From Syntrophobacterales bacterium (GTDB lineage Bacteria > Desulfobacterota > Desulfobaccia > Desulfobaccales > 0-14-0-80-60-11), in assembly GCA_020060385.1 (NCBI GenBank), contig JAGVAH010000157.1:4586-68585 (forward strand): a DNA stretch of 64,000 nt, given 5' to 3'. A program made the translations under genes and the position numbers. Below, piece by piece: positions 6,555 through 33,923 of this stretch (positions within the stretch are counted from its first letter, which is position 1; every line of letters begins with the position of its first letter). The notes under the pieces were generated by a model, which saw only the letters and a list, made by a program, of their open reading frames with translations, was not told where the DNA came from and did no database searches.

Positions 6555-6565
6555 CCCCGGCTCCT

Positions 6566-13442: not shown

Positions 13443-13802
13443 TAACCATATTTCGGTGGACCGTTCCCAACCAACTGACAACTTTTCCTGCAACTGTCCA
13501 ACAAGGAGCTCAAGTGCAAGAGGCCAAAATCCGGTCTGGCAGGCGCTGCAAAAGGTTGGCTCAAAAGGTTGTCTCCTCCGCAAACTTCCGCTTCACTGAT
13601 GCAGCCGGTTTAGTCATCGTCTGACCTGAGCGATAACGGGCCCGGTTACTGCCTGGCCCCCCTTCTCCTTCTCTCCAGCCAGACCATCCAAGCCCAAGCT
13701 TAACCCGCAGCCTGCCCTGAAGGATCGGGGAAAGGGCGGGGAATAAAGCCCAGCGGCGTTTACCTCCTTCCTTGGCATCTTTGACCAGGAGGTTTGACAG
13801 CC

Positions 13803-16800: not shown

Positions 16801-19800
16801 CCCAGATTTCCCAGTATATTTTAGGGAAAGAGTTGGCCAGGGATTTCCAGGCTCAGGGAGGCATCTTTACCCGGGCTCCGGGGAGAGGAGCGGACCTGGC
16901 CCCGGCCCGCCGGGAGTTTCGCGATAGCCTCGCCGCGTTGGGGGAATTTGCCTTGGGCGTGGCCTCCCTGGCCGGGGAACGGGGCATCGCCCTCAACCGT
17001 CTGTTCTCCCAGTATTTCACCGGCAAAGGGGCCTGGGCCGGCATGGCCTGGCAGTTCGGGTCTTCCAAACGGGGCACCCCGGTTTTTTCCGCGACTTTTA
17101 TCTCCCACCGTCCCATCCAGCGCCAGGACGCGCTGTTGCGTTTTCCCTTTTACGTGCTCACCGTCACCAACTACGGGGATTTGAAATCCCAGCCGGATTT
17201 GTTTTACGACCACCTCCACCCCCAGGGTTATCTCATTATCAATACCCCCCGGACCCCGGCCGCCATTCACCAGGAATTGCTGGCCGGCTATGACGACCAC
17301 ACCCGCCAGGGGGTGGCCCGGGCCCAGGATGCGCCCCGGGGCGAGGCCCGGGAAGCGGTGAGCCAATGGTTGTTTGAAGTTCCCTATAACGCCCTGAACC
17401 GGGAGCAGCTGGATCAGGTTACCAAAGTCCTGGCCCTGGCCCAGGCCCGGGTGATCACCACCGACCTGGACGGGATTATGGCCCAGGTGACCGGCAGCAG
17501 CCGGGCGGTTTCCAATCTGGTGGCGGTGGCCCCCATGATGCGGGCCCTGGAGCTTTTGGGCATGCCGGTGAGCTTTGAGGCCGACTTGCCGGCCCTGACC
17601 GCGGGCTTTCCCGGGGCGGTGAAAAAAAATAAGCAGCTGACCGAGCAATATTTGACGGCCATGGGGCGGGCCTATCAGGAGTCCCAGGGATTTAGCGACG
17701 CCCCGCCGCAGCTCCCCCCCCATCCCGGGGGACCGTCCCCGGACCCGGGGGACTATTATCTGGAGATGGGGGGCACCCTGGCGGGCCAGGTCCTGAGCCA
17801 GCTGGCCACCAGGGACCACCCCTTATTTTATATCGGTTTTCCCATCACCCCCGCGGGCAACCCCTTTTATGCCATGGCCCAGGCCTATGCCAACGGCCAC
17901 CCCTATATCATGGTGGACGAAAACAATCCCTCGGAGAAGGTGGCCGCGGAAAAGCTGCTGGGGGTGGCCCGCACCGGCGGCGCCCTGCCGGTGACCTTCA
18001 CCGCCTCCCAGGGTTGGCGGCTCTTTGCGGAAATCATGCCCCAACTGGTGGGGGCTCGCCTCGAATGCCTCTTCATCCTGGCCAAACGGGCCCTGGCCGC
18101 GCCAGCCCTGAACATCGAGGAGAGCCATACGGATTTCATGACCTTCCGGGATGACGGGGCCATTATGCTCTCCCCCAAAGACATCCAGGAATTCGTCCCC
18201 TGCCTCTATCTGGCCCGGTTGCTGACGCATTTTGCCCGGCTGCCGGTGGTGGCCTCCCTGGGGGGCATCACCGATACCCACAAAATCAGCCTGGTCAAGG
18301 TTCCTCCGGACCAAGAGGTCCAGGCCTGGCTGGCCCGGGCCCTGGCGGAGGTGGATTTCCTGGAAGATAAGCTGCTGAATCGCCAGGGGGAGGTGATTGT
18401 CCACGGTCCCAGCGCCACCGGGGAAGTCTATCAGGAAACTCAATCGGCAGTGGAGAAGGCCCATGCCCTGGTGCCTCGGGTCTTCCCGTATGCGGCCCGC
18501 CTGGTGGAGGAATTGACGGGCTACCGCTTCCAGGAACTGGAAGTCGCGGCCACGGCCCCGGGGGAACCCCTGACCACCGGGCTGGTCCTCACCGGCTCTT
18601 TCTATCCCAACGCACAGGAGGCCATTGCCGAACTGGCCCAGGAGGGCTGGGGGGAGCTGGGGGCCATTTCCGTCAGGCTGTTCAATCCCTTTCCGGAAGA
18701 GGCCCTGGCTGAGATATTGTCCGGGGCCAAGCTGGTGACCATCATAGACCGCTCCAACAGTTTCGGCAGCGTGCCGCCTCTGGCCAGCCGGGTGATCACG
18801 GCCCTGGCCCGCGCCCGTAAAGGGCTGCCGCCCCTCTTTCGCGTCCTGGTGGGCGGCCTGGGGGGACGGGAGATCACCGTGCCCGAACTCAAAGAAATCA
18901 TCAAGTTCAGCCATCTGTGCCTGGCGCCCCGGCCCCAGGTAAAGCCGGGGCTCAGGCAGCGCCTCCTGGAGGGGGACCTGTTGCTCCAGGGATTACTGGC
19001 AGAACGGGCGGCCCTGGAAGCCAGGAGTCTGCAGCGGCATACGCGGCTCCCAGCCGCGGCCCGGTCCGAGGCCCAGGCCCCGGGAGCGCTTGCGGCCACC
19101 CGGGAAAGACTGGCCCAGGCCCTCATCCGGGGAGATTACCTCTCCGCCCTGGCCAATTACGGCTCCGTGGAGTTCGTCAATCCCCAGGAAGTTTGGGAGG
19201 AGACCCGGCTCCTCAAGAAGTTGATCATCCGCCTGGAGATGCTGCTGGCCCGGGAACTCATCAGCCAGGGACAGGCCGACTGGCGGGCAGCGGCAACACT
19301 CCTGGAATACGGGGTGCAGCCCGGAGATTTTGCCTTGGCGGTGCGCGGCCTTAATTCCCTGATCACCGCCGCGCCGGCCCCTGCGGCCTGGACTCTTTAT
19401 CGACTGGGTGAAGCCTACGGTCATAAATTCAGGCCCAGGGGCCTGACCTTAAGGGCACCGGTGGGGCCGCCTCCGGCGCCTCTGCCCCCGTCTGCGGCTC
19501 CAGAAATTGAGGAGCCGGCGCCACCGTTGGGCGCGGCCAGGCCCGAAGTTCCCTTTTCCCCCGCGGAGGCGGCTATTTTAGAGAAGGTCATGCGCGCCCT
19601 GATTGGGGAAAGCGCCCAACGGGAAACCCTGCGCAATCCCCTTGACCTGGAGCGGGAGACCCTGGATATCCTGGCCCGTGACCCGGCCTCCCAGCTTTTT
19701 GGCCGGGCCGATGGGGCCATCCGCCGGGCCTATCAGGAGGTGTATACCGGGGTCATCGACCGGACCCTGGCCGAGGGCATCCTGGGGCAACACTATGCCC

Positions 19801-20087
19801 CGGAGCTCAGGGAAATCTTTGCCGGCGAGGGGCTGCGGGCCCTGGAGCTGATGGCCCAGGCCACGGTGGCCTATTTTGCTCGGGGCCATGGGGAAGGGCC
19901 CCCTGACCGGGTAGAAGTGCAGCGACAGGCGGCTGGGGCAGTGGAACGTTACCTCCGGGAAGAGGTTTACCCCCGGTACCGCCGGACGCCGGGGTTTTAC
20001 CATGACTATTACCGGGCCTGGGTGGCGCCGGACCTGAAAGAGGCCATTGTCAGGGAAGTGGCGGCGATTAACTGGAAAACCCCATAA
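13803..20087 (+). CDS. Giant (about 2,095 aa) domain-permuted 2-oxoacid:ferredoxin oxidoreductase-like fusion protein
   Basis: ORF track 13794 (TTG); ATG 13803 is more likely (AGGAGG upstream). Numbering from 13794. Ferredoxin motifs: C201-x2-C-x2-C-x3-C and C233-x2-C-x2-C-x3-CP. PFOR TPP-binding module: ACPTC..TCETGC, SGDGGAVIG..NVTDTQVYSNTGGESSATS, TPCPE. Gamma/POR-like module: FGSSKRGTPVFSATFISHRPIQ. PFOR domain I: IGFPITPAGN, NPSEKVAAE, TFTASQGW, ESHTDFM. PFOR domain II: SVRLFNPFPEE, IIDRSNSFGS. Long unassigned N-terminal, internal and C-terminal stretches. Confidence 0.8.
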   Translation: MAEGGSPGTILEASISGVPADLRQWRLIKGDPEVFGVWLGDSFYPLARRENLGLGFQEGLLGAGYAAAWRDRSDCLEHLPHPLADFFRRQPERSQFYLVSRNLPGNAGQPVPLFTLAKTDRGQAVVLELNPDFADRREIYLALAVYSLVQANTPYLHHRFDAHGDFQRLGAFSQVERHSTEMSRKHLGQRIYFEAEGCTHCLKCAASCSEMQVRLTSGGLTVLGPAEDYCTVCRLCLAHCPYLKDVRKEDLTPDRQAAPAAHFTGGAAVYLTREAAREAQAWFQGLAASPGRGGDWRISLLYQGASWQEGEPPGPEIRQYSLQEQRPGSPYKPLLITAHISPQGGTAPPLLILRLLSRVAVFLTSAAGEIEAELLRGVDSMGVLYQGVVDGEKFGSPGDMPLASKLHRLHRLAPDADLAALVTAGQVDVVLTPTLEALPAPVSSYFLEATGNLAHLLAPQIFQAFTFSPEPLLHEIRELCLEVFPRYPQLLAAEAERARTYLADLPRYGPEIHARYRTWGMAPGHSACPTCAELQTLAVPLYMAMLLSLSRGQVPQVTFTCETGCMSETLNKVKEVAQKVKGGRTVFGGGFAFGEAAAMSEEWAMARGVLPQGRRYVVSQSGDGGAVIGLPAWLNALRQRSFLIKDREAQVLHFINVTDTQVYSNTGGESSATSMLGMSTLTTPLGRFLVGNQRIQWQLINLAAEFPGVLVGSGHSAHKDLMQEFWAEADRLGRSAIRWDVTPCPETGKFFGEDPDRLARIMAYAGFLPEVVFVGRLRKRVAPINPRDRHKNWREWTSEPQPIYYWLAQDPRYRPLIRRDLVSGHWEPINPAVRAIIAQLESFRDGLNRQIDLENRLVREAEEYTAEFFRHLQAEWQRHRYVPEEFPYHFLFNDQGELKPEFGPALPRDFLEAVLGLDYVRQYVVARDEQMTGEVQTLQTPGPAAQAIPPDGGEGLPPPDPVVAMGTTATSYESVAAARQAEFQRLLDRLLDDRALAKQAQISQYILGKELARDFQAQGGIFTRAPGRGADLAPARREFRDSLAALGEFALGVASLAGERGIALNRLFSQYFTGKGAWAGMAWQFGSSKRGTPVFSATFISHRPIQRQDALLRFPFYVLTVTNYGDLKSQPDLFYDHLHPQGYLIINTPRTPAAIHQELLAGYDDHTRQGVARAQDAPRGEAREAVSQWLFEVPYNALNREQLDQVTKVLALAQARVITTDLDGIMAQVTGSSRAVSNLVAVAPMMRALELLGMPVSFEADLPALTAGFPGAVKKNKQLTEQYLTAMGRAYQESQGFSDAPPQLPPHPGGPSPDPGDYYLEMGGTLAGQVLSQLATRDHPLFYIGFPITPAGNPFYAMAQAYANGHPYIMVDENNPSEKVAAEKLLGVARTGGALPVTFTASQGWRLFAEIMPQLVGARLECLFILAKRALAAPALNIEESHTDFMTFRDDGAIMLSPKDIQEFVPCLYLARLLTHFARLPVVASLGGITDTHKISLVKVPPDQEVQAWLARALAEVDFLEDKLLNRQGEVIVHGPSATGEVYQETQSAVEKAHALVPRVFPYAARLVEELTGYRFQELEVAATAPGEPLTTGLVLTGSFYPNAQEAIAELAQEGWGELGAISVRLFNPFPEEALAEILSGAKLVTIIDRSNSFGSVPPLASRVITALARARKGLPPLFRVLVGGLGGREITVPELKEIIKFSHLCLAPRPQVKPGLRQRLLEGDLLLQGLLAERAALEARSLQRHTRLPAAARSEAQAPGALAATRERLAQALIRGDYLSALANYGSVEFVNPQEVWEETRLLKKLIIRLEMLLARELISQGQADWRAAATLLEYGVQPGDFALAVRGLNSLITAAPAPAAWTLYRLGEAYGHKFRPRGLTLRAPVGPPPAPLPPSAAPEIEEPAPPLGAARPEVPFSPAEAAILEKVMRALIGESAQRETLRNPLDLERETLDILARDPASQLFGRADGAIRRAYQEVYTGVIDRTLAEGILGQHYAPELREIFAGEGLRALELMAQATVAYFARGHGEGPPDRVEVQRQAAGAVERYLREEVYPRYRRTPGFYHDYYRAWVAPDLKEAIVREVAAINWKTP

Positions 20088-20090
20088 GGT

Positions 20091-23000
20091 TTGGAGGAAG
20101 TTTTGGCATCGCATCCCCGGAGCGGGGTTTCTGAAACTGTCGGGGCAGGCCCCTGGGGGGACCTGCGTCCCCGGGTTTATAAAGCGATTCGGGCCGCGGC
20201 CGCGGAGCCGGCAGCCCCGGCGGACCGCCGCGCATTGCTGGAACACTGGCTGAGCCCCTTATTCCAGGAGGATACCCGCGAACTTAGCTTCCCGGAGGAA
20301 TTGGCCCAAGATCAGCAAGCCTTGTTTCAGGGCGGCCTGCAGCGAGCCGTCAACCGTTGCCGCGGCTACGCCGGGGCCTGGTTTGCCTGGGAGTCCCTGG
20401 ACCCGGAAGCCCTGGCCCGGGAAGTGAAGCAGGCGGTCAGGAGGGTGGCCCGGGAAGATGAGATGGCCCAGTCTCTGATTGAGGGGCAGGATCTCCAGGC
20501 AGAGGAAATCCCCCGGCTCCGGAAATATAGGTTGCGGCAGCGCTGGTGCGGCGGTGGGGAGGCTGCCGACGCCTTCCGGGTGGAAGAGTGGCTCCAGGAT
20601 GTGGCCTTTTTTAACCGGGAATTAATGGAGATCGGCAGTTGGGCCCGTTTATTCCATACCGTCGCCTTGCTCCATGGGGAGGGGATAAAGGCACCGGAAC
20701 TGAGGCGGCAGGCCCTGCTCTCGGTTCAGGAAAAAGTCATTAAGGGACAACCCCTGGAGTCCCTTGGGGAAGTGGTCATTTATTTGGAGGGCCGGGTAAG
20801 GGCCGGGGAATATGCGACCTCCGGGGAGAGCCTGGCCCCGCCCCTGGAGCCTGGGCTGTTTCCCGGCGAGCCTCAGGATGTCTGCCTGCTGCTGCGGCTG
20901 GGGCTGGTTTTCCTGGTCACCGGGGGCAGGCGGCCCGAACATCGGCAGCGCCTGGACTGGTTGGCAAAGCACCAGGACCTTAACGACCTGCGCGATTTAT
21001 TTCTCTTATTCCTGGCAGCCCTCCAGGGGCAAGACCCCCTGCCGCCCCCCTCGGCGGTGCTGGACCAGCTCCAGCGTCAGGGCTACCCCATTCACCACCA
21101 GGATTCCAGTTACGCCTACCGGGCCTTCATGGTGCCTCTGGAAGATTTGCCCGGCGTCTTGGAGGTAAGCCTCAGTTGGCCCCTGGACCCCGGGGCCCTC
21201 ACCGGAGATCCGGAACGAGACTTAAGCCTGGGTCGGGACCAGGGAGAAAGGCAGGGCCTCTGGCTCCAGGCCTTTAAAGAAGAGGCCCTGGCCTATTGTC
21301 GGGGCCGGGTGAAGCCGCTGCCTTACGCCGAGCTTATCCGCCCCGCGGCCCGGTTTGCCGCGGCTTGGCTGGCGGCTAGACAGTGTCGGGAGGGGAAAGC
21401 GCTGGATCTGCCAGCCCAGGTCCAAGAAGGGGTGAACCTCCTGCCGCCAGCCCTCTTGAAGCTCATTAGGCCTCGCAAGGGCTACGAACTGTCCCACCGC
21501 AGTCAACTGGAAAGATTGCTGCAGCAGGAATTCCAGGCCTACCACCAGGTCCTCTACCGGTGTCGCGGTGGCGGCTGCCTGGCCAATAAGGCTGATGAGG
21601 GCCGCTTCTTCCATCTGGCCGCGGCCCTGGCGCTGGCGTGCCGCCAGAGTGACTTAATGGCCTTGGGTCCGGAAGAGGTGACGGGATTGGAAGTGGCGGA
21701 AGTCTTGGACCATCTCCAGGAATTGGCCGCCACCCTTTCCCTGGACCTGGAACCTGCGGCCGCGCCCTACTGGCATGAATTCAAGGATTGGCTTAAGGAG
21801 AAGCTGGATTGGCCTTCCCTGGCGGGAGAGGCAGAAGACCCCGGTGGACTCCCGGTCAACTGGAAGTCTGAGGCGGATACCCTTTTCCAGGAACTGGCTG
21901 GGCAGCTTTACCGTTTGGTGGTGGCCAAGGCCCGGGCCGAGGGGGGGCTGCCTCTTCTTAAGGGGGACCGCCATCTGCTTGCCTGGCTGGCAGACTGGCT
22001 GACTCCGGAAAGGCGCGCCCTCCTTAAAGCCTCCGGCGCCCAGCTACTCAACACCATTAAGGCCCAAGCCCGGCAAGCGGTGTGGGAATCCTACCCCTTG
22101 CTGCTGGAGAGCAGGGAAGAACTGCTGGCCCTGAGCAAGTATTATCTGGGGGTGGAACTCAAGGGCCGGGATTTGGAGACCTATGCCCGGACCCAGCCGC
22201 TGGGGGACTTGGCCCCAAAAGTGGCGGCGGCTCTCCAGAGATGCCACATTCCTCCGGAAATTGCCGGTCCCGGCGGGGTGGAAGCGGTTATCCAAGAAGT
22301 GCTGCGGCCCCGAACCCTGGAGGCCACTGCGGCCCAACGGCAACTGGAGGAAAAGGTCCTGGCCCTTCTGCCCCGGACCGATTGCGGCTCCTGCGGCAGC
22401 CCGGGTTGCCTGGCTTTTGCACGACTGCTGGTCCAGGGCCGGGCCCAACCGAGCCAATGCCCCACCTCCCCCGCGGCCACCAAGGCGCGGCTGACCGGGA
22501 TTCTCGGGGCGACGCCCGCGGCGGCTCCGGAGCCTTATGTCCTCAGGCCCGGGGAAATCCCCCTGCTCACCTGCCTGTTAGACCCATATTTCGTGGCCCT
22601 GCGACAGCGGCTGGCCCAGGAATTGGACGCGGGTGAGCGGGAGAGGATTATCCCCTTTAAAAAGCGGGGGATTTCCATTCTGCAAATCGGCAAAAGTCCC
22701 GATGCCGCTGCCTTTCACAGGTATTTAGAGGATTATTTGGGCTCCGACGCGGCCAATCGCCTGAGCCGCAGCGACCGGGCCTTTCTGGCGGATTACGGCG
22801 ACTTGAGACTGGCTGCCGCCACCCGGGAGCTGGAAGATGAATTTTCCTGGGCCGCGTATGAGACCCGGATCAATCTCTCGAAATTCGCCCTGGCGGAAAG
22901 AGACCTGGCCCGGGGGGCCGCGGCCCATTATGACCGCTGCTTCTTTCTTTCAGACTTGTCTATTACGGACCGGACCCGGGTGCAGGAATTCCGCCGTCAA

Positions 23001-24941
23001 CGCTTCCTGTGCGATTTTTTGGAGGATTGGGAGCAAAGCTTGACGGAACTCTGGCAGGCTGGGTCCCGCATCGAAGATTGGCAGGACTTCTCCCATATTG
23101 TGGCTAAATCTTACTGGCATCAGGAATTCACCCCGGCCCCGAAAGAAATCATGCAGGCCTTGGGGCGGGCGATCCGGGAGCCCCTGCCCGCCTGGGGCCT
23201 ATCCTGGGGGGAAAGGCTGGTGCAGGAGCAGTGGCACGCCCTGGAAAGCGAAAAGTCACATCTGGCTGAACTACTCAGACGGCGACGGGTGGAAACTCCC
23301 GCAGACCTGGACCTTCTTGTCCGCGGCTTGGTGAACCGGGCCTGGCAGGATCTGACCGCCGGAACGCCGGCCCCGGGTCTGCCCCGTCCCGACCCGGTGC
23401 TGCAGATCAGCCGGAACGCCTTTAAGCAACTGGACCAGGCCAATCTCCACATGGCCGGGGACCTCAGGATGCATTGGGATGAACTCTCCGGGCGGGTCCG
23501 GGAGATTCTGGGCGCAGATACCCAGGTGGCGCCGGAGGAATTGGCCCGCCTGCAAGCCAGCGCCGCCGGCCTGGCCTGGCGAGAGATGTCCTCTTTGGGG
23601 AGGGCCTGGATCGAGGCCCAAATAACGGCCGCGGCGGAACGTCTCCTCTTGGAAGAAGTTGAGGTGGACCGTTTTCTTAAGGGGGATCTGCCTTTCCCCA
23701 GTCCCCGGACTCTGCGCCGGGCAGTCTGCCGGCTGTATGCGGCCGGCAAAAAAGGCCTTCACCACCTCCTGGAGGCCCTACACACGGCTATGCAGGCCTA
23801 TCCCCAAGGGTGGCAGGCGCTGGGAGAGGCGGCCCTGTTCCAGCTTATCTGGGCGCGTCTGGCCACCGGGCGATTCAGATTCACGGAGCCCGGGGCCGAT
23901 AACCTGGTGCGCAAGGTGGACCGCCTGCTCCGGGCCCAGGTGAGCAAGGACGTGCATAAGCTGAAGGCCTACATGTTTCTGTTGGCGAAGATGGAGGGCA
24001 ACCTGGATAAGCTCACGGCCCTGCTCCGGGAAATCCGGGAGACCTCGGATATTATCGAAGCCGCCTGGCTGGACTTTACCAAAGAACGCCTGGCTCTGCG
24101 CCGTTCCCCTCATCCTGAGGCGGCAGAGGGCCAAAAAGCGCCCTTGCTGCTGGCCCGCCTTGACCCGGCGCGGCTGAACCGTTACCTGGAAGAGGGTCTG
24201 CCCCGGGGGGAACCCCGGGAATGTAGCCGGGCCTATGAGGAACTGACCACCATCTTGGAATTCTATGTGGTCTCCGCGGCCCCCCAAGATTCTCCCCAGG
24301 AGATCTTCCAGCACCTGCAAGGGGGCTGCTACGATTTTACCGGGATTTCCCCCCAATCCTTATTGAAGACTTTACAGGTCCTCCACCAGCAGCGGGATCG
24401 CCTCCTGCCCCGCAAAATCAGCATTTGCACCTACGTCCTGGGCCATCGCCTGGCTGGCGCGGAACCACATCTGGCCCAGAGCGAAGCCGACTTTCTCAAT
24501 GAGAAGAAGGCCTTTCTGAAATCCGAGGCTTTGCCAGCGGAACTCCGCAAGGGACAACTGGCGGGCAACTGGGGGGTAGAGCTGGGAAAAATCAGAAATG
24601 CCCTCTACCTGCAAGTCTCTGATCTGCTGGAACAGGAACGCACGGAAAGTTTTGCCAACCGCATCGGCCAGATCATTGAGCGCCTGGAAGAAGAATACGC
24701 GGCCACCGTGGAGGCGTTCCAAAAGGGTGAGTTTAACCGCCGCACCGCTTTTTATATTTTCCGGCGCTTCCAGAAGGATCAGAATGAACTGTCGGGCGCG
24801 GATTTGGGACGTTTTCTCAAGCGGCACCAACCGGAAACCCTGGCGCAACTCCGGAGCCGGTTGGCGCCCCTGGTGGTGGCCGAGGTGGAGGGGCAGCTGG
24901 AAAAGATCTTATCCAAGTATCAGGGGGCGTTGTTGGGCTAG
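20091..24941 (+). CDS. Giant (1,616 aa) helical protein with a single RnfB/CFeSP-type [4Fe-4S] motif; function unknown
   Basis: Starts 3 nt after the ORF A stop (TTG 20091, or TTG 20103 with GGAGG 5 nt upstream). The only recognisable motif is LLPRTDCGSCGSPGCLAFARLLVQGRAQPSQCP, i.e. C765-x2-C-x4-C-x16-C790 (nt 22383-22460). The remainder is Leu/Ala/Glu/Arg-rich with uniform coding-like composition. Confidence 0.75.
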   Translation: MEEVLASHPRSGVSETVGAGPWGDLRPRVYKAIRAAAAEPAAPADRRALLEHWLSPLFQEDTRELSFPEELAQDQQALFQGGLQRAVNRCRGYAGAWFAWESLDPEALAREVKQAVRRVAREDEMAQSLIEGQDLQAEEIPRLRKYRLRQRWCGGGEAADAFRVEEWLQDVAFFNRELMEIGSWARLFHTVALLHGEGIKAPELRRQALLSVQEKVIKGQPLESLGEVVIYLEGRVRAGEYATSGESLAPPLEPGLFPGEPQDVCLLLRLGLVFLVTGGRRPEHRQRLDWLAKHQDLNDLRDLFLLFLAALQGQDPLPPPSAVLDQLQRQGYPIHHQDSSYAYRAFMVPLEDLPGVLEVSLSWPLDPGALTGDPERDLSLGRDQGERQGLWLQAFKEEALAYCRGRVKPLPYAELIRPAARFAAAWLAARQCREGKALDLPAQVQEGVNLLPPALLKLIRPRKGYELSHRSQLERLLQQEFQAYHQVLYRCRGGGCLANKADEGRFFHLAAALALACRQSDLMALGPEEVTGLEVAEVLDHLQELAATLSLDLEPAAAPYWHEFKDWLKEKLDWPSLAGEAEDPGGLPVNWKSEADTLFQELAGQLYRLVVAKARAEGGLPLLKGDRHLLAWLADWLTPERRALLKASGAQLLNTIKAQARQAVWESYPLLLESREELLALSKYYLGVELKGRDLETYARTQPLGDLAPKVAAALQRCHIPPEIAGPGGVEAVIQEVLRPRTLEATAAQRQLEEKVLALLPRTDCGSCGSPGCLAFARLLVQGRAQPSQCPTSPAATKARLTGILGATPAAAPEPYVLRPGEIPLLTCLLDPYFVALRQRLAQELDAGERERIIPFKKRGISILQIGKSPDAAAFHRYLEDYLGSDAANRLSRSDRAFLADYGDLRLAAATRELEDEFSWAAYETRINLSKFALAERDLARGAAAHYDRCFFLSDLSITDRTRVQEFRRQRFLCDFLEDWEQSLTELWQAGSRIEDWQDFSHIVAKSYWHQEFTPAPKEIMQALGRAIREPLPAWGLSWGERLVQEQWHALESEKSHLAELLRRRRVETPADLDLLVRGLVNRAWQDLTAGTPAPGLPRPDPVLQISRNAFKQLDQANLHMAGDLRMHWDELSGRVREILGADTQVAPEELARLQASAAGLAWREMSSLGRAWIEAQITAAAERLLLEEVEVDRFLKGDLPFPSPRTLRRAVCRLYAAGKKGLHHLLEALHTAMQAYPQGWQALGEAALFQLIWARLATGRFRFTEPGADNLVRKVDRLLRAQVSKDVHKLKAYMFLLAKMEGNLDKLTALLREIRETSDIIEAAWLDFTKERLALRRSPHPEAAEGQKAPLLLARLDPARLNRYLEEGLPRGEPRECSRAYEELTTILEFYVVSAAPQDSPQEIFQHLQGGCYDFTGISPQSLLKTLQVLHQQRDRLLPRKISICTYVLGHRLAGAEPHLAQSEADFLNEKKAFLKSEALPAELRKGQLAGNWGVELGKIRNALYLQVSDLLEQERTESFANRIGQIIERLEEEYAATVEAFQKGEFNRRTAFYIFRRFQKDQNELSGADLGRFLKRHQPETLAQLRSRLAPLVVAEVEGQLEKILSKYQGALLG

Positions 24942-25000: not shown

Positions 25001-28000
25001 ATGGGTGCACAAATCCTGGAGATGCGGCTGAGTCCCGGCTGTCAGGAGGAAGCAGCCGGGGAATATGATCTGCGCCCGGACCTCACCCCGGAAGCGGCCG
25101 CAAAAGAATTGCCTCCGGCGGCGCGCCGGGTTTTAGCGCCGGTGGCGGCCGCGTTCGCGGCCCTGCATCGGGGTTTGGTGGAAGATTTGCCACTGACCGG
25201 CATCCGCAAGGTTCGCCTTTTCCAGAACCTGGGCGCCGCGGCGCGTTTGGCCCGGAGCCAGGAACCTGGGGCCGCCACCGCCGAAGTAGCGCTGGCCGCC
25301 CTGGGGGCCGGGCCGCAGTGGGTTTCATTGCTGGCTGACCTGCTGCGGGCCGCGGCCCTATATCCGGGGGTGCGGGATACCCGGCTGCCCCGGCGTTTCG
25401 CGCCCCTGGCCCGGATGGTGGCCCCCTTGCGCCACCTCCTGGAAAAGATCCGGGAAAGGGTTCAGCGCCAGCCTCGATTTGCCTCCCAGATTATGGGGCC
25501 CCTGGAAGCTGATGACTCCCAGCGGCTGGTTGACCCCTGGGGGCAGACCCGCCTGCTGCTCCAGCGTTTCCTATGCCGGCAGGACTGGCGGGAACGGGAT
25601 GTGCTGCACCTGATGCTGGATTTCCTCCAGGGGAGCCCTAACCTTTACGGGGAGCGCCTCCTGAACCTCTGGTTTTCCTTGAAGCGCCTGCAAGATGAGG
25701 AGCCCGCGGCCTATACCCGGATGGTGGCCGCGCTCATCAACGAAGGACGGGCCTATCTGGGAGAGCTCCCCCGCTGGCGCCACCTCTGCGGGATGGGGGA
25801 AACCGGGGGAACAGGGGCCTGGGAAGGGGCTGACACCTTCCGGGTCATCCAGGGCATGGCCGGGCTCCTGGGAGTACCCCCGGAGGATCTTCCGGCTCTT
25901 TCCGCCGCAACTGGCGCGGCGGGGATTGACTGGGACACCCTCAAGGCCGCAGCCTTACAAACAGGAGGCGGGTTCTCCCCCTTAAAACCCTTGGAGAGGG
26001 CTTCTCTCTTCCTGGCCGCGGAGCTGTTCCCCGAAAATTTGGGCCATCGGGCCTTTCTGCGCTTCCTCTTGGAAAACGAAGAGCCTTACCGGCAGTTGCT
26101 GGCCACCTGCTACAGCTCATTGGAAACGCAAGAGGCCCAGCTTGCCAGGATTTTAACCGCGTTTAACGGGCACCCGGCCAATATCGAAAAACGGGTGCAT
26201 TACCGCCAGAGTGAGGCGGCCCAGTTGCTGCGGGTCTTCTTTTTGCGGCCCGATCCGGTGGAGGCCATCATTGACCGGGAGCGGAAAAAAGACATCTATT
26301 ACCGCCTCCCCGGGTTGCCAGGCCAGGCCCTGCTCCCCCAGGTGCTCCACGAATGCCAAAGCATCTTCCAGTACCTCACGCAGGAGGCCCTGAAACGGGT
26401 GGCCGCGGGTTTAGGGGTCGATCCTGCCGAGATTGGCCGGGTCATCGCCTCCTACAAGGAGTTTACGGTGGATCCCACCGGCCAGCACCTCCTTTATGTC
26501 TGCAAGGGCACCGCCTGCTTTCTGAGGGGCCAGCCCCACCTTTCCCAGGCCCTGGCCACCCGCCTGGGAGTGGAGGAAGGCCGGGTTTCCCCGGAGGGGG
26601 TGCAATTCTTTGAGCGGGATTGTTTTGGCACCTGTCATCTGGCCCCGGTGATCAAGGTGGGCCACACCTTTGTTGCCGCCTTGAGGCCGGAGGTAATCCC
26701 GCCCTTGATCGGCAAGCTCCTCAAGGGCCGCTCCTTCGCCAATCGCTCCGATTTCTTCAAGGCCGTTCGGGATAGCCTGGCGGAAGAAGATCAGGTGGTC
26801 CTGAGCCACTCTTGCCCCGTCCAGGGGGCCTGCGGGCTGGAGGTCACCCCGGAGCAATTAGAGGGCCTGGCCATTAACGGCCTGGGGGAGATCCGGGCCT
26901 GGCCGGAAAAGAAAGTCCTGGGAACCCTGGCGGAACGGAGCTACTCCTTCAGTTTTATGGATCCGTCTGGCAGCCGGCAATACGGCACCCTCATTACCGA
27001 TGCCGACGACTTTCTCCTGGGGGTGGTCAATGTCCCGGACCCCCGGGTGCAAAAGGGATTGGCGCGCACCCTGCGGCCCCGGGTAGTGCTTAAGGACCAT
27101 TACGTCCATTTGGAGGGACGCCCTCAGCCCCTGGGGGCCTATCACTCCAACAGCATCGCCTTGGGGAAGCCGGACGGCACCTACGGCAGCCTGGTCTTTG
27201 GGGAAGAGAACCTCCAGTCTCCCCCGGAAGAGACCTGTGGCTTGACCCCGGGTTTCCAGCGTCCGGTCCCCCCGGAATTTTTCCGGCGGCAAGACCGGCT
27301 CCTCCTGGGGTTTGTGGAGGGAGTGAACCCGGAATCCATCGATTCTTATCTGGAAAAGGGCGGCTACCAGGCCTTGAAAAAGGTTCTGGGTTACGGTCAG
27401 CCGGAGAAGAGCTGGCCGCCGGCAACCATCGTCCAGGAGATCATGGCCGCCAATCTCCGGGGCCGGGGGGGCGCGGGCTTCCCCACCGGCGTCAAGTGGG
27501 AGGCCATGCTTCAGGCTCGTCCCGAATCGCGGGCAGGAGACGAGGTGGACCTGCCTCTGAAGTTAATGGTGGCTAACGGTGACGAAGGCGACCCCGGCGC
27601 CTTTATGGACCGCACCTTGATCCAGGAACGGCCCCATCAGGTTCTGGAAGGGATGCTCATCGCCGCCCTGGCCACCGGCTGCCGCTATGGCGTCATCTAT
27701 GTCCGCAAGGAATACGAAGATGCGGTGCAGCGCCTGGAAAACGCCGTCTTTGAGGCCCGGCGCTACGGTTTCCTGGGGCGGCAGGTAATGGAAGTGGCGG
27801 ATTTCGACTTCGATGTGGAAATCCGCTTGGGTGCCGGGGCTTTTGTGGCCGGGGAAAAACGGGCCATTATGCGGGCCATCGCCGGCAAGCCCGCGGAGCC
27901 CGATCTTCAGGCGGTCTCCAATGTCAAGGGGGGACTGTGGGGCAAGCCCACCCTGCTGAACAACGTGGAAACCTTTGCCAATGTGCCTTTGATTATCAGC

Positions 28001-28936
28001 CGGGGCGGCGCCTGGTTCCGGGACCGGGGATACGGGGCCAGCGGCGGCAGCAAGATCTTTTCCGTGGCCGGGATTGTCAACCACACCGGCCTGGTGGAGG
28101 TGCGGTTCGGCCGCACCTTCAGGGACGTGCTGCAGATCGCCGGGGGCGTCCAGGAGGGGAAAAGGCTCGCTGGCGTCCAGATCGGCGGTCCCTCGGGGGC
28201 CATCCTCTCTTTGACCGGAGTCCGGGCCTACCTCCTGGATGCCCCCCTGGATTTCGATGTCTTCAACCGGGTGGGGGCCATGCTAGGTTCCGGCGGCCTG
28301 GTTTTCCTGGGGGAGGACGATGACGTGGTGCGGTTGGCCCGTCATTTTACCTCTTGGCTGGCCGCGGAATCCTGCGGCCAATGCCCCAGTTGCCTGAACG
28401 GCCTCGTCTCCCTGGGGGCCACCCTGGACCGCATCCTCAAAGGGGAGGGCGCCAGCCTGGATATCCACACCCTGTGGGGCAAAGCCGATATCATCCGGGC
28501 CGGCTCCCGGTGCGGATTGGGGCAGACAGCCCCCAACCCCGTGACCAGTTCCCTCAGATTCTTCCCGGTTTCCTATCTCCATTACCTTTTGGATAACCCC
28601 CGGATCGATGCCCCGGAGCTTTTCCTCAGCCTGGAGGCCTTACATCTCCTTACCCGGGGGGAGACCGCGCTCTCCACCGCCGCGCCTGGGCGCGTCTCCT
28701 TCTACCTGAAAAAGGGTTTGATCCGGTTCATCTTTGAGGAATTGACCAAACTGGACCGCTTTCGGCCGGGGACGGACAACCGCCCGGGCCGTTTCTTGAA
28801 ATTGCTCAACCTTACCCCGAACCAGGTGGGTTGGCGGGGCGTGCAGATGGAATATTCCCGGGAAACCATGGCCCAACATCCTTACCTCATGGTGGGGGCC
28901 TCAGGGGCAGGGGCAAAGGCGGAGTCCCGGGCTTAA
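25001..28936 (+). CDS. Giant (1,311 aa) NuoE-NuoF fusion flavoprotein (NAD(P)H/FMN/[2Fe-2S]/[4Fe-4S] module) with a ~480-aa unknown N-terminal region
   Basis: AAGGAG 8 nt upstream of the ATG. NuoE-type motif: C501-x4-C506..C541-x3-C545 (VCKGTACFLRG..CFGTCHLAP). NuoF-type motifs: NPESIDSYLEKGGYQALKKVL, LRGRGGAGFPTGVKW, NGDEGDPGAFMDR, GAGAFVAGEKRA, SLBB-like VEVRFGRTFRDVLQIAGG, and N3 cluster ESC1125GQCPSC-x39-C1171GLGQTAPNP. Confidence 0.85.
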   Translation: MGAQILEMRLSPGCQEEAAGEYDLRPDLTPEAAAKELPPAARRVLAPVAAAFAALHRGLVEDLPLTGIRKVRLFQNLGAAARLARSQEPGAATAEVALAALGAGPQWVSLLADLLRAAALYPGVRDTRLPRRFAPLARMVAPLRHLLEKIRERVQRQPRFASQIMGPLEADDSQRLVDPWGQTRLLLQRFLCRQDWRERDVLHLMLDFLQGSPNLYGERLLNLWFSLKRLQDEEPAAYTRMVAALINEGRAYLGELPRWRHLCGMGETGGTGAWEGADTFRVIQGMAGLLGVPPEDLPALSAATGAAGIDWDTLKAAALQTGGGFSPLKPLERASLFLAAELFPENLGHRAFLRFLLENEEPYRQLLATCYSSLETQEAQLARILTAFNGHPANIEKRVHYRQSEAAQLLRVFFLRPDPVEAIIDRERKKDIYYRLPGLPGQALLPQVLHECQSIFQYLTQEALKRVAAGLGVDPAEIGRVIASYKEFTVDPTGQHLLYVCKGTACFLRGQPHLSQALATRLGVEEGRVSPEGVQFFERDCFGTCHLAPVIKVGHTFVAALRPEVIPPLIGKLLKGRSFANRSDFFKAVRDSLAEEDQVVLSHSCPVQGACGLEVTPEQLEGLAINGLGEIRAWPEKKVLGTLAERSYSFSFMDPSGSRQYGTLITDADDFLLGVVNVPDPRVQKGLARTLRPRVVLKDHYVHLEGRPQPLGAYHSNSIALGKPDGTYGSLVFGEENLQSPPEETCGLTPGFQRPVPPEFFRRQDRLLLGFVEGVNPESIDSYLEKGGYQALKKVLGYGQPEKSWPPATIVQEIMAANLRGRGGAGFPTGVKWEAMLQARPESRAGDEVDLPLKLMVANGDEGDPGAFMDRTLIQERPHQVLEGMLIAALATGCRYGVIYVRKEYEDAVQRLENAVFEARRYGFLGRQVMEVADFDFDVEIRLGAGAFVAGEKRAIMRAIAGKPAEPDLQAVSNVKGGLWGKPTLLNNVETFANVPLIISRGGAWFRDRGYGASGGSKIFSVAGIVNHTGLVEVRFGRTFRDVLQIAGGVQEGKRLAGVQIGGPSGAILSLTGVRAYLLDAPLDFDVFNRVGAMLGSGGLVFLGEDDDVVRLARHFTSWLAAESCGQCPSCLNGLVSLGATLDRILKGEGASLDIHTLWGKADIIRAGSRCGLGQTAPNPVTSSLRFFPVSYLHYLLDNPRIDAPELFLSLEALHLLTRGETALSTAAPGRVSFYLKKGLIRFIFEELTKLDRFRPGTDNRPGRFLKLLNLTPNQVGWRGVQMEYSRETMAQHPYLMVGASGAGAKAESRA

Positions 28937-30382: not shown

Positions 30383-30600
30383 CCCAAGACCTCTTAAGCC
30401 TCAGGCTTTTCTTTCCCAGGCCCGATGGGTCATAATTCCACCACTGCCCGGGGATTATTGGGGGTTGACGCCTCAGCCCCCGCCAAACATCTCCTGGTTC
30501 TTTCTTTATGTAAAAAATATCAGGCCACATTGTTTCAATTTTTAAAGACCTTATGTTAATCTGAGGCAGTTTGGATAACCCCTTGAAAAATTGGAGAAGA

Positions 30601-31851
30601 ATGATGTCTACTGCCTCAGGGAAGGAATTCCTGCGCCCCGTGCGGCCTCTCCTCCTGGCTTGCCTGGCCCTTTTGCTGCTCCTCGCCCAAGGGTGCATGG
30701 CCCTAAAGGTGCGCCAGGCGTTGCCGGAGAACCTGCTGGACCAGGCCCAGGTGGCCGATTTGCCCGGCATTCGGGCCTGGGGCGACGTTGCCAGCAAGAG
30801 CCTGCAGCAGAGCGCCATCGAGTCCATCCGCCAGGAGATGGCCGCCAATCACGGCAAGCTCGAACCTGAAGCCAATTTCCTGGCCCTGTCCGGCGGCGGC
30901 GGCGACGGAGCCTTCGGCGCCGGCATCCTCTGCGGCTGGACCGAGGCCGGCAACCGGCCCCGTTTCAAGCTGGTGACCGGCATCAGCACCGGGGCCCTCA
31001 TTGCGCCCTTCGCCTTCCTGGGGCCGAAATATGACGCCAGGCTGAAAGAGGCCTACACCACCATTTCCGACAAGGATATCTATACGGTTCCCAGCGTGGT
31101 GAAGCTGGTAATTAATCTGGGCAGGATTGAAGCGGCGGCCAGCACCAAGCCGTTGGCCGAACTGCTAGAGCGGCTCATCGATGACCAAATGATTCAAGAA
31201 ATCGCGGTCGAACACCGCAAGGGCAGGCGCCTGCTGGTGGGCACCACCCAGCTCGATGCCCAGCGCCAGGTGATCTGGAACATGGGCGCCATCGCCGCCA
31301 GCGGCCACCCTGATGCCCCCAAGCTCTTCCGCCAGATTCTCCGGGCCTCGGCCTCCATCCCGGTGGCCTTCAACCCGGTTTATATCAAAGTGCGGGCCGG
31401 CGGCCGGGAATACGACGAAATGCACGTGGATGGGGGAGTGCGGGCGGAGGTGATGCTCTATGAGACTGCCCTCGATCTCTTTACCGCCAGGAAGAAGGTT
31501 TTGCAGGCGGAGCATGTTCACGACCGCCCCCGCAAGCTGTACATCATCCGCAATGCCCAAGTTTCCCCCGAATTTAAAACTATTAAACCCCATATAGCGG
31601 ACATCGGCACCCGGGCCATCGGCAGCCTCACCAAATACCAGGGGGTGGGGGATTTGTACCGTATCTACGTACTGGCCCAGCGGGACGGGATTGACTATAA
31701 CCTGGCCTACATCCCCGTGGATTTTCACCCCCAGCGGACCTCGGAATTTGACACCAAGTACATGAACGAGGAGTTTAACCTGGCCTTCAACCTGGCGCGC
31801 TCCGGCTATAAGTGGAGCAAGTACCCGCCGGGCTTCAGTCCTTCTCCCTAG
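30601..31851 (+). CDS. Secreted/lipid-anchored patatin-like phospholipase
   Basis: Start at ATG 30601 (GGAGAAGA upstream). Signal peptide ending LLLLAQGC. Oxyanion motif LSGGGGDGAFGAG, nucleophile elbow GISTG (GxSxG), catalytic Asp in HVDGGV. Confidence 0.85.
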   Translation: MMSTASGKEFLRPVRPLLLACLALLLLLAQGCMALKVRQALPENLLDQAQVADLPGIRAWGDVASKSLQQSAIESIRQEMAANHGKLEPEANFLALSGGGGDGAFGAGILCGWTEAGNRPRFKLVTGISTGALIAPFAFLGPKYDARLKEAYTTISDKDIYTVPSVVKLVINLGRIEAAASTKPLAELLERLIDDQMIQEIAVEHRKGRRLLVGTTQLDAQRQVIWNMGAIAASGHPDAPKLFRQILRASASIPVAFNPVYIKVRAGGREYDEMHVDGGVRAEVMLYETALDLFTARKKVLQAEHVHDRPRKLYIIRNAQVSPEFKTIKPHIADIGTRAIGSLTKYQGVGDLYRIYVLAQRDGIDYNLAYIPVDFHPQRTSEFDTKYMNEEFNLAFNLARSGYKWSKYPPGFSPSP

Positions 31852-31883
31852 TAGCCCTGACCGCGTCGACCGGGAGATAAAAC

Positions 31884-33914: not shown

Positions 33915-33923
33915 GGTTGAGAG

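What the first reader, a model, noticed from the sequence alone, without database searches (positions are those of the whole stretch)
20091..24941. ORF B: 1,616-aa protein with one RnfB/CFeSP-type cluster motif and no other recognisable domain
The only motif I can place is DCGSCGSPGCLAFARLLVQGRAQPSQCP (C765-x2-C768-x4-C773-x16-C790, nt 22383-22460). This is the spacing known from the N-terminal [4Fe-4S] domain of RnfB and the large subunit of the corrinoid Fe-S protein. It sits mid-protein, flanked by about 760 and 820 residues of Leu/Ala/Glu/Arg-rich, probably all-helical sequence. Its position between the OFOR-like and NuoEF-like genes suggests an electron-relay scaffold holding the two catalytic modules together. 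A single cluster in 1,600 residues is extreme.
Basis: partly seen in the sequence, partly recalled or inferred. Interest (0 to 1): 0.7.

Follow-up and report, generated by a model that had tools for sequence, protein, structure and literature searches.

The report
Giant single-cluster bridge subunit of OFOR–NuoEF enzyme
ORF B is a real, conserved, roughly 1,600-residue all-helical protein with one iron-sulfur cluster domain, always encoded between (and sometimes fused to) a giant pyruvate-type 2-oxoacid oxidoreductase and a NADH-dehydrogenase-like flavoprotein, so it is most likely the structural and electron-passing middle piece of an undescribed half-megadalton redox enzyme of sulfate-reducing and syntrophic bacteria.

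Summary
ORF B (20091-24941, +; probable start 20103) encodes about 1,612-1,616 aa. Its only recognisable module is a PF04060 RnfB/CFeSP-type [4Fe-4S] domain (aa 747-812). The rest is confidently predicted all-helical, with no repeats, no membrane segments and no sequence or fold relative in the PDB.

The family is tiny: 26 clusters among 5.8 billion proteins, and 32 hits among 1.84 billion representatives. It occurs in Desulfobacca-like, Syntrophobacterales and Desulfacinum/Desulfosoma genomes. Only four cysteines are conserved down to 24-27% identity, and they are the motif cysteines.

B lies between the giant OFOR (A) and the NuoE-NuoF fusion (C) in every one of about 38 loci where flanks are visible. 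One locus has an extra gene inserted between A and B. Natural fusions exist: a B-C protein of 2,980 aa and a colinear A-B-C protein of 7,473 aa.

A keeps the TPP motif, three clusters and pyruvate-site residues. C keeps [2Fe-2S], FMN and [4Fe-4S], but has no NuoG/BfuA partner and no bifurcation-type extra clusters.

Best reading: B is the scaffold and single-cluster electron bridge of a soluble 2-oxoacid (probably pyruvate):NAD(P) oxidoreductase. The physical association is strongly supported. The electron relay and the overall reaction are inferred. It is a new variant of a known kind, and testable in cultured Desulfacinum infernum.

The parts
13794..20087 (+). ORF A. A 2,097-aa fused 2-oxoacid:ferredoxin oxidoreductase with domain order delta (2x[4Fe-4S], C201-C243), beta (TPP, C531/C534/C568/C747), gamma, alpha. 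It carries about 1,100 aa of unassigned extra sequence at aa 1-190, 250-520, 750-1065 and 1705-2097.
   Evidence: Pfam and NCBIfam domains. Conserved Cys. Invariant GDGG...NTGGE motif, and T1352/R1432/I1441 aligned to PFOR T31/R114/I123.
20091..24941 (+). ORF B, the finding. 1,616 aa from TTG 20091. The more likely start is TTG 20103, preceded by GGAGG at 20093-20097.
20160..22325 (+). N-terminal all-alpha region of B (aa 24-745). No known domain, no repeats, no TM segment. Invariant patch R460-P-R-K-G-Y-E466.
   Evidence: AF2 pLDDT 84.7. No Foldseek match in the PDB at E<=0.001. hhalign finds no internal homology. Hydropathy. Invariant columns.
22329..22526 (+). RnfB/CFeSP-type [4Fe-4S] domain of B (aa 747-812). 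Pfam core aa 760-791 is nt 22368-22463. Ligands are C765, C768, C773 and C790.
   Evidence: Foldseek match to the CFeSP chain 4c1n_G: probability 0.99, 61 columns, rmsd 3.3 Å, 33% identity.
22512..22550 (+). Variable, indel-rich Ala/Pro linker after the cluster domain (aa ~808-820). A smaller indel site lies before the domain at aa ~743.
   Evidence: Family alignment around aa 730-840. pLDDT dips here in both models.
22533..24938 (+). C-terminal all-alpha region of B (aa 815-1616). It contains the most conserved blocks: D996-W-x-D-F...W1009-H-Q-E1012, and aa 1302-1333 (MEGNLDKLTALLREIRETSDIIEAAW).
   Evidence: AF2 pLDDT 75.9. No Foldseek PDB match. A profile of this region finds only 32 proteins among 1.84 billion representatives, all of them members of the same family. 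Conservation profile.
25001..28936 (+). ORF C, 1,311 aa. It has a 445-aa unassigned N-terminal extension, NuoE-like [2Fe-2S] (C501/506/541/545), a 200-aa insert, a NuoF-like FMN/NAD(H) module with [4Fe-4S] (C1125/1128/1131/1171), and a 120-aa tail. AAGGAG lies 7 nt before the ATG.

Best explanation
ORF B is the middle subunit of a soluble three-protein enzyme of about 555 kDa per A-B-C protomer. OFORs are normally dimers, so the assembly is probably a dimer of trimers. The enzyme links a TPP-dependent 2-oxoacid oxidoreductase, most probably acting on pyruvate/acetyl-CoA + CO2, to NAD(P)(H). A carries TPP and three [4Fe-4S] clusters. C carries [2Fe-2S], FMN and one [4Fe-4S]. There is no NuoG/BfuA-type connecting subunit. 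B takes that place. Its two large all-alpha regions (about 740 and 800 aa) act as the scaffold that docks A and C, and probably also the roughly 1,900 aa of extra helical sequence that A and C themselves carry. Its single RnfB/CFeSP-type [4Fe-4S] domain sits between the two regions on indel-rich linkers. It passes single electrons between the distal cluster of A's ferredoxin domain and the N3-type cluster or flavin site of C, either as a fixed stepping stone or as a tethered swinging shuttle. Shown: the domain identity, the four-Cys conservation, the absence of other cofactor motifs, the obligate gene linkage and the natural fusions. Inferred: cluster occupancy, the electron path, the substrate, and the direction (pyruvate oxidation to NADH, or pyruvate synthesis for gluconeogenesis).
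For: (1) PF04060 domain, with the four Cys invariant down to 24-27% identity and in the fusion protein. (2) A-B-C order in every locus with visible flanks: 26 loci found through B and 9 more found independently through C's N-terminal extension. The three loci without B are cut at the contig end. (3) Rosetta-stone fusions. P0030 is B+C (2,980 aa, with A upstream). P0054 is a colinear A-B-C fusion (7,473 aa: A at aa 885-3410, B at 3594-5102, C at 5384-6812). (4) Cofactor inventory from conserved Cys: A has 3 clusters, B has 1, and C has [2Fe-2S] plus [4Fe-4S]. No locus contains a NuoG-like gene. (5) A is catalytically intact, with an invariant TPP motif and invariant equivalents of PFOR T31/R114/I123. 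C has a complete NuoE/NuoF core. (6) B evolves like a structural protein: 24-55% identity against 44-70% for A and 45-71% for C in the same genome pairs. Its conservation level matches that of the non-catalytic extensions of A and C. (7) B is soluble, has no repeats, and matches no catalytic domain. (8) The stops and starts are tightly spaced, with ribosome-binding sites. (9) Weak context hints for pyruvate/PEP. A PPDK_N/PEP-utilizer gene is inserted between A and B in L024. Such genes lie next to the cluster in L001 and L027. PEPCK lies in the window. A LeuA/CimA-like synthase lies downstream in five Desulfacinum/Desulfosoma loci.
Against: No interface or distance prediction could be made. 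One cluster can bridge A and C only if both partner clusters come within about 14 Å of it, or if the domain moves. About 1,550 residues is far more than a relay needs. Invariant polar patches (RPRKGYE 460-466, DW.DF...WHQE 996-1012, aa 1302-1333) could mark an unrecognised binding or catalytic site. WHQE is not kept in the 7,473-aa fusion. C's flavoprotein core is closest in sequence to bifurcating HydB-type subunits, so the reaction may not be a simple two-substrate one. NADH-driven pyruvate synthesis would be strongly endergonic. There are no expression, proteomic or biochemical data, and no paper on this system was found.
Confidence: 0.6

Rival explanations
1. The trio is a new kind of flavin-based electron-bifurcating or confurcating enzyme, a BfuA-less relative of the predicted Por-Bfu. 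It would couple pyruvate/acetyl-CoA+CO2, NAD(H) and ferredoxin. B's tethered cluster would act as the gate or the ferredoxin-side branch.
For: C's NuoF core scores best against HydB, NiFe-HydB, NfnB and HoxF (E 1e-113 to 1e-102), better than against complex I NuoF (about 1e-81). Por-Bfu clusters are predicted in syntrophic Proteobacteria for pyruvate synthesis from NADH plus Fd (PMC9304861). The host lineages are acetate or propionate oxidisers that need pyruvate synthesis (established knowledge). Gluconeogenic neighbours are present.
Against: C has no conserved Cys beyond the NuoE [2Fe-2S] and the N3 [4Fe-4S]. The N-terminal [2Fe-2S] and C-terminal 2x[4Fe-4S] domains that are conserved in all BfuB subunits are absent, and the PDB matches stop before HydB's C-terminal ferredoxin domain. 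There is no BfuA homologue.
Confidence: 0.17
2. B is mainly an architectural protein that builds a higher-order assembly around the enzyme, such as a cage, a filament or a substrate-channelling body. Its cluster would be structural or redox-sensing rather than on the electron path. A and C would exchange electrons directly or through free ferredoxin.
For: About 70% of the 5,024 residues of A+B+C are unassigned helical sequence. B diverges fast. There is only one cluster in 1,600 aa.
Against: The only invariant cofactor-like feature of B across all lineages and fusions is the relay-type PF04060 domain, whose characterised homologues in RnfB and CFeSP are one-electron carriers. C lacks any other input cluster for electrons coming from A.
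Confidence: 0.13
3. The helical regions of B hold an unrecognised catalytic or ligand-binding function, for example CoA/acyl handling, nucleotide binding or regulation together with the downstream GAF protein. B would then be more than a bridge.
For: Invariant polar motifs lie outside the cluster domain. The predicted fold is novel. A PtsP/NifA-type GAF gene follows C in 13 loci.
Against: No nucleotide, CoA or metal motif was detected by Pfam, NCBIfam or PDB profiles. Some of the invariant motifs are lost in the 7,473-aa fusion. The GAF gene is missing from the window and from its 84% relative.
Confidence: 0.08
4. ORF B is an artefact: a chance long ORF in GC-rich DNA, or a pseudogene.
For: High GC (63%) generates long spurious ORFs on other frames.
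Against: Full-length conservation at 24-84% identity in dozens of genomes with a constant length of about 1,600 aa. High-confidence AF2 models. Invariant motifs.
Confidence: 0.01

Closest known systems
N-terminal [4Fe-4S] domain of RnfB/RsxB and of the corrinoid iron-sulfur protein large subunit (AcsC/CdhE); Pfam PF04060
   Same: Same C-x2-C-x4-C-x16-C motif and the surrounding LPxxxCGxCGxPxCxxFA sequence. 33% identity and rmsd 3.3 Å to the CFeSP chain 4c1n_G. In the characterised proteins the domain is a one-electron carrier on a flexible tether.
   Different: In RnfB and CFeSP the domain is N-terminal in proteins of 170-450 aa and is followed by ferredoxin or TIM-barrel/B12 domains. Here it is internal, flanked by about 740 and 800 aa of unrelated helical sequence. 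No Rnf or acetyl-CoA-synthase genes are adjacent. Full-length RnfB and CFeSP models score far below their cut-offs (36.9 vs 68.7; 34 vs 306).
NuoG / HoxU / HydA N-terminal part / BfuA: the connecting subunits that wire NuoEF-type flavoprotein modules to a catalytic module
   Same: Same proposed job and position: the subunit between a NuoEF-like NAD(H) module and the catalytic partner.
   Different: No homology. NuoG/BfuA carry one [2Fe-2S] and two to four [4Fe-4S] clusters in ferredoxin-like folds. B has one cluster of a different family and about 1,550 aa of helical scaffold. B is an analogue, not a member.
Por-Bfu, the predicted and uncharacterised pyruvate oxidoreductase-linked member of the Bfu electron-bifurcating family (Schut et al. 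2022, PMC9304861)
   Same: An operon combining Por with NuoE/NuoF-like subunits. Proposed in syntrophic Proteobacteria for pyruvate synthesis. C's flavoprotein core is HydB-like in sequence.
   Different: Por-Bfu has four separate normal-sized Por subunits plus BfuA, BfuB and BfuC with the full cluster set. Here Por is one 2,097-aa fusion in the order delta-beta-gamma-alpha. BfuA is absent. NuoE and NuoF are fused and lack the BfuB-specific clusters. A 1,600-aa novel protein is inserted.
Pyruvate:NADP+ oxidoreductase (PNO) of Euglena and Cryptosporidium, and NADH-dependent phenylglyoxylate dehydrogenase PadEFGHI (from established knowledge; Pad models appear)
   Same: OFOR chemistry wired directly to a pyridine nucleotide through a flavoprotein instead of free ferredoxin.
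   Different: PNO uses a fused cytochrome-P450-reductase-type FMN/FAD domain. Pad uses a GltD-like FAD subunit. Neither has a NuoEF module or anything like B.

Membership tests
PF04060 'Putative Fe-S cluster' domain (RnfB / CFeSP N-terminal [4Fe-4S] domain) | Profile match above the Pfam gathering score | tested here: met
   47.5 bits against a cut-off of 23, E 1.5e-12, aa 760-791. All 22 aligned family members match.
PF04060 'Putative Fe-S cluster' domain (RnfB / CFeSP N-terminal [4Fe-4S] domain) | Four cysteine ligands C-x2-C-x4-C-x16-C, conserved among homologues | tested here: met
   C765/C768/C773/C790 are invariant in 22 sequences, in 10 distant orthologues and in the 7,473-aa fusion.
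PF04060 'Putative Fe-S cluster' domain (RnfB / CFeSP N-terminal [4Fe-4S] domain) | Same fold as the solved domain | tested here: met
   Foldseek match of the AF2 model to CFeSP 4c1n_G: probability 0.99, 61 columns, rmsd 3.3 Å.
PF04060 'Putative Fe-S cluster' domain (RnfB / CFeSP N-terminal [4Fe-4S] domain) | Actually binds a redox-active [4Fe-4S] cluster | not testable with these tools
   Needs purified protein with EPR, UV-vis and iron/sulfide analysis.
RnfB / RsxB subunit of the Rnf complex | Full-length match (TIGR01944 cut-off 68.7), C-terminal ferredoxin domains, and rnfACDGE neighbours | tested here: not met
   36.9 bits, covering only aa 747-811. B has no Fer4 domains. No rnf genes occur in any locus.
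Corrinoid iron-sulfur protein large subunit (AcsC/CdhE) | TIM-barrel and B12-binding domains after the cluster domain (NF003195 cut-off 306) | tested here: not met
   34.2 bits over aa 756-802 only. PDB profile matches stop at aa ~815.
Bfu (HydABC-type) electron-bifurcating family; applies to the system, not to B alone | [quoted passage not shown] | tested here: not met
   Only 8 conserved Cys in C (NuoE [2Fe-2S] and N3). No Fer4 Pfam hit. HydB matches end at C aa ~1198, before the ferredoxin domain.
Bfu (HydABC-type) electron-bifurcating family; applies to the system, not to B alone | BfuA (NuoG-like) subunit, or for 'Type 4' an unrelated feeder to an intact BfuBC core | tested here: not met
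   No NuoG/HydA-like gene in any locus. The BfuBC core is itself incomplete (previous row).
2-oxoacid:ferredoxin oxidoreductase superfamily (partner ORF A) | TPP-binding GDG...N motif, the beta-subunit proximal cluster, a 2x[4Fe-4S] domain, and alpha domains I/II | tested here: met
   POR_N 6e-30 and PFOR_II 1e-12. GDGG(625-628)...NTGGE(668-672) is invariant. C531/534/568/747 and C201-C243 are invariant.
Pyruvate-specific OFOR (PFOR) | Pyruvate-site residues equivalent to D. africanus T31, R114 and I123 (residue roles recalled from the literature) | tested here: met
   T1352, R1432 and I1441 align to them and are invariant in 13 sequences. Substrate specificity itself was not tested.
NuoE/NuoF NADH-dehydrogenase module (partner ORF C) | Thioredoxin-like [2Fe-2S] domain, FMN/NADH-binding 51K domain, and the SLBB + N3 [4Fe-4S] domain | tested here: met
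   PF01257 1e-26, PF01512 5e-39, PF10589 1.5e-19. nuoF_fam scores 340.7 bits (below the equivalog cut-off of 558.65).

The most novel reading that the evidence does not exclude
The A-B-C trio is a previously unseen type of energy-coupling redox machine. B's two huge helical arms hold an OFOR and a HydB-like flavoprotein apart. Its tethered [4Fe-4S] domain swings between them as a gated shuttle. This would give a BfuA-less and BfuB-cluster-less route to electron bifurcation/confurcation, or conformationally coupled electron transfer. It would let acetate- and propionate-oxidising Desulfobacterota make pyruvate from acetyl-CoA + CO2 with NAD(P)H as (co-)donor.
Probability: 0.15. Interest if true: 0.85.

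Novelty: new variant of a known kind. Interest (0 to 1): 0.64.

Why it matters
Enzymes that connect low-potential 2-oxoacid chemistry to the NAD(H) pool sit at the centre of carbon and energy budgets in anaerobes. All known NuoEF-containing enzymes use a NuoG/BfuA-type multi-cluster connector. This system replaces that connector with an unrelated 1,600-residue helical protein carrying a single RnfB/CFeSP-type cluster. It also embeds the catalytic cores in about 3,500 residues of sequence with no known fold relative. If confirmed, it would show a new way to wire two redox modules together. It would add one or more new large all-alpha architectures. It might also explain how complete-oxidising sulfate reducers and syntrophs interconvert acetyl-CoA and pyruvate. 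The system occurs in cultured strains (Desulfacinum infernum DSM 9756, D. hydrothermale DSM 13146), so it can be tested directly by purification and cryo-EM.

Tried and rejected

2. Sequence profiles. Pfam on all 22 members at E<=1 gave only PF04060 and a weak, probably spurious YvrJ hit. The PDB profile search hit only the cluster domain.

3. Internal duplication or shared modules. BLASTP and hhalign were run among the N and C halves of B and the seven unassigned regions of A and C. All probabilities were <=3.3%. Self-hhalign found no repeats.

4. Membrane anchoring. No 19-residue window in B exceeds Kyte-Doolittle 1.35, so this idea was rejected.

5. Coiled coil. Most of the ~80 predicted helices are 10-30 residues long, only a few exceed 30, and the longest is 47. 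B is therefore not a long coiled-coil protein.

6. Word-indexed searches with C's N-terminal extension and A's C-terminal extension returned only a few fragments and were uninformative. The question was answered instead by a metagenome scan with an alignment of C's extension.

7. A first attempt at the local family alignment timed out and was rerun.

8. The downstream GAF gene as an obligate fourth subunit. It is present in 13 loci but absent from the window and from its closest relative, so it is not obligate.

9. PPDK_N/PEP-utilizer linkage was seen in only three lineages. It is kept as a hint and not used as evidence.

10. Literature searches on Desulfobacca, Desulfacinum, NuoEF + PFOR and Por-Bfu found no description of this trio.
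Full report
**Observation.** The ORF at 20091-24941 (+) is present as described: 1,616 codons from a TTG. Its translation carries DCGSCGSPGCLAFARLLVQGRAQPSQCP, with cysteines at 765, 768, 773 and 790, which is nt 22383-22460.

- Pfam places PF04060 ('Putative Fe-S cluster', the RnfB/CFeSP N-terminal domain) on aa 760-791 at E 1.5e-12, 47.5 bits against a gathering score of 23. Nothing else matches.
- NCBIfam gives only partial, far sub-threshold matches of aa 747-817 to RnfB, RsxB and the acetyl-CoA synthase gamma subunit.
- A profile of 22 family members searched against all PDB sequences hits only CFeSP large subunits (4djd_C, 6.6e-9) and RnfB chains, and only over aa 743-815.
- The composition is Leu/Ala/Arg/Glu-rich.

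The tightly spaced stop of ORF A (20085-20087), a GGAGG at 20093-20097 and an in-frame TTG at 20103 suggest a true start four codons downstream. That gives 1,612 aa, the same length as the 84% homologue. The public gene call that starts 48 codons later cuts off conserved residues.

**Structure of B.** AlphaFold2 with a 22-sequence alignment gave confident models. The N half (aa 1-830) has mean pLDDT 84.7 and the C half (aa 740-1616) has 75.9. Both consist almost entirely of helices, mostly 10-30 residues long with only a few longer ones, the longest being 47 residues.

- Foldseek against the PDB found nothing at E<=0.001 for either half. The one meaningful match is the cluster domain to CFeSP chain 4c1n_G: probability 0.99, 61 columns, rmsd 3.3 Å.
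- B has no membrane-like segment and no internal repeats.
- There is no detectable homology between its halves, or with the unassigned regions of A and C.
- The segment just after the cluster domain (aa ~808-820) varies in length and is Ala/Pro-rich across the family, and a smaller indel site lies just before the domain. This fits a tethered domain, but that is an inference.

**The family.** A search of 5.8 billion clustered proteins found only 26 clusters. All are about 1,570-1,690 aa and all carry PF04060. A HMMER profile of the C-terminal 800 residues, searched against 1.84 billion representatives, found only 32 proteins. All are members or fragments of the same family.

- GTDB genomes place the family in Desulfobacca-like MAGs (46-72% identity), Desulfobacterales and Syntrophobacteraceae MAGs.
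- The cultured strains Desulfacinum infernum DSM 9756 and D. hydrothermale DSM 13146, together with Desulfosoma MAGs, carry it at about 27% identity.
- The D. infernum protein (WP_073035963.1) is annotated only as '(Fe-S)-binding protein'.
- The four motif cysteines are invariant in every sequence examined, while none of the other 16 cysteines of the window protein is conserved.

**Linkage to A and C.** Every locus with enough flank has the order A-B-C on one strand with short or overlapping junctions.

- A, B and C are all present in 16 of the first 23 loci. The remaining 7 are cut by contig ends and still show either A-B or B-C.
- The same order holds in five further loci. One of these (L024) has a PPDK_N/PEP-utilizer gene inserted between A and B.
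- As an independent test from the other side, I scanned metagenomes with an alignment of C's unique N-terminal extension. In all nine new loci with upstream sequence, B lies directly upstream. The three loci without B are cut at the contig end.
- Two natural fusions exist. P0030 (2,980 aa) is B fused to C, with A upstream. P0054 (7,473 aa, NCBI MAG GCA_041643115.1) is a colinear A-B-C fusion, with A at aa 885-3410, B at 3594-5102 and C at 5384-6812. It retains the four-Cys motif.

These Rosetta-stone fusions are strong evidence that the three proteins work as one physical unit.

**The partners.** ORF A (2,097 aa) is an OFOR fused in the unusual order delta-beta-gamma-alpha.

- It has eight invariant Cys of a 2x[4Fe-4S] domain.
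- It has the beta-type cluster ligands C531/C534/C568/C747 and an invariant GDGG...NTGGE TPP motif.
- It has invariant T1352/R1432/I1441, which align with the pyruvate-site residues T31/R114/I123 of the D. africanus enzyme. The residue roles are from the literature as I recall it.

ORF C (1,311 aa) is a NuoE-NuoF fusion with exactly two sets of conserved cluster ligands, [2Fe-2S] and N3-type [4Fe-4S], plus the FMN/NAD(H) domain.

- Its core is most similar to HydB, NiFe-HydB, NfnB and HoxF.
- It lacks the extra [2Fe-2S] and 2x[4Fe-4S] domains that Schut et al. describe as conserved in all bifurcating BfuB subunits.
- No NuoG/BfuA-like gene occurs in any locus.

A and C also carry about 1,100 and 765 residues of unassigned sequence. 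These evolve as fast as B, while the catalytic cores are 75-90% conserved. Between the same genome pairs, B is 24-55% identical against 44-71% for A and C.

**Interpretation.** Three proteins are always linked and sometimes fused. The electron chain has a gap exactly where other NuoEF enzymes have a multi-cluster connector. B's only universally conserved cofactor feature is a one-electron-carrier domain placed between two large scaffold regions.

B is the scaffold and single-cluster bridge of a soluble enzyme of about 555 kDa per protomer. The enzyme couples a 2-oxoacid, probably pyruvate/acetyl-CoA + CO2, to NAD(P)(H). The proposed path is TPP, then three [4Fe-4S] in A, then the [4Fe-4S] of B, then N3 and FMN in C, and finally NAD(P)+. 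The steps through B are inferred, not shown.

I give this 0.6. The main uncertainties are:

- whether a single cluster can span the gap (fixed or swinging);
- why so much protein is needed;
- whether the HydB-like flavoprotein signals a three-substrate (bifurcating) reaction.

The rivals are:

- a novel bifurcating enzyme (0.17);
- a mainly architectural role with an off-path cluster (0.13);
- an unrecognised extra function in the helical regions (0.08).

An artefact is excluded.

**Context hints.** PEP-utilising or PPDK_N genes lie inside or next to the cluster in three lineages. PEPCK lies at window 38438-40291. A LeuA/CimA-type synthase lies downstream in five Desulfacinum/Desulfosoma loci. 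All of this is compatible with a pyruvate node but is weak evidence. A GAF-domain gene of the PtsP/NifA type follows C in 13 loci but is absent here and in the closest relative.

**Comparison with known systems.** The cluster domain is a bona fide PF04060 member. B as a whole is not RnfB, not CFeSP and not NuoG/BfuA, because defining features were tested and not met.

The nearest published concept for the system is the predicted Por-Bfu (PMC9304861). It differs in subunit structure, in having BfuA, and in the BfuB cluster set. PNO and phenylglyoxylate dehydrogenase are functional analogues with different flavoprotein modules. I found no paper describing this trio.

I therefore rate it a new variant of a known kind: an OFOR-to-NAD(P) enzyme with a novel connector subunit and probably novel folds. 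Interest is 0.64.

Noticed in passing
window 12745-12830 (-): A c-di-GMP-I riboswitch (RF01051, 56 bits against a gathering score of 35, E 2.9e-8) lies in the 1.5-kb gap upstream of ORF A, on the opposite strand. It sits just 5' of a 92-aa ORF (12414-12692, -) that has a hydrophobic N-terminal stretch and no family match.
   Followed up: partly
L027 10001-32422 (NCBI MAG GCA_041643115.1, contig JBGGHG010000055.1): A single 7,473-aa ORF fuses A-, B- and C-like regions in gene order. It adds about 880 N-terminal and 660 C-terminal residues with no Pfam match. It is followed by a 2,045-aa PEP-utilizer/PPDK_N protein and another PEP-utilizing enzyme. The taxon of the MAG was not determined.
   Followed up: partly
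L008, L011, L013, L014, L016-L018, L020, L021, L023-L026, directly downstream of C (e.g. L016 18232-18819; L025 18811-19878): A free-standing single or double GAF-domain protein follows ORF C in 13 loci. Its best NCBIfam similarity is to the GAF domains of PtsP (EI-Ntr) and NifA. It is absent from this window and from the 84%-identical locus L028. It could be a regulator or an accessory subunit.
   Followed up: partly
L024 2569-5478: In the most divergent bacterial locus, a 969-aa protein with PPDK_N (ATP-grasp) and a weak PEP-utilizer mobile domain is inserted between A and B in the same operon. This hints at a link to pyruvate/PEP phosphotransfer.
   Followed up: partly
window 13794-20087 and 25001-28936: The partner proteins are unusual in themselves. 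A has the OFOR domains in the order delta-beta-gamma-alpha, with four unassigned insertions or extensions totalling about 1,100 aa. C has a 445-aa N-terminal extension, a 200-aa insert between NuoE and NuoF, and a 120-aa tail. None shows homology to the others or to B.
   Followed up: partly
window 42713-42958 (-); L025 9719-9961: An 80-aa DUF6812 (PF20660) gene sits between A and B in locus L025. Its 45%-identical homologue in the window lies about 14 kb downstream of ORF C, on the other strand. No other locus has it inside the cluster.
   Followed up: no
L016 18940-21667 (also L017, L018, L020, L022): In Desulfacinum/Desulfosoma the A-B-C-GAF cluster is followed by a LeuA/CimA-like (HMGL-like + LeuA_dimer) synthase, seen in five loci. 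An HD-domain protein lies before the synthase in three of them (L016, L018, L022). The synthase is an enzyme that condenses acetyl-CoA with a 2-oxoacid.
   Followed up: no
L028 19899-24771: In the closest relative of the window, the cluster is followed by an HdrA-like protein, an MvhD/FlpD-like protein and the small and large subunits of a NiFe hydrogenase. In the window itself, the genes after C are instead a patatin-like phospholipase, an MscS channel and an adenylate/guanylate cyclase (window 30571-35366).
   Followed up: no
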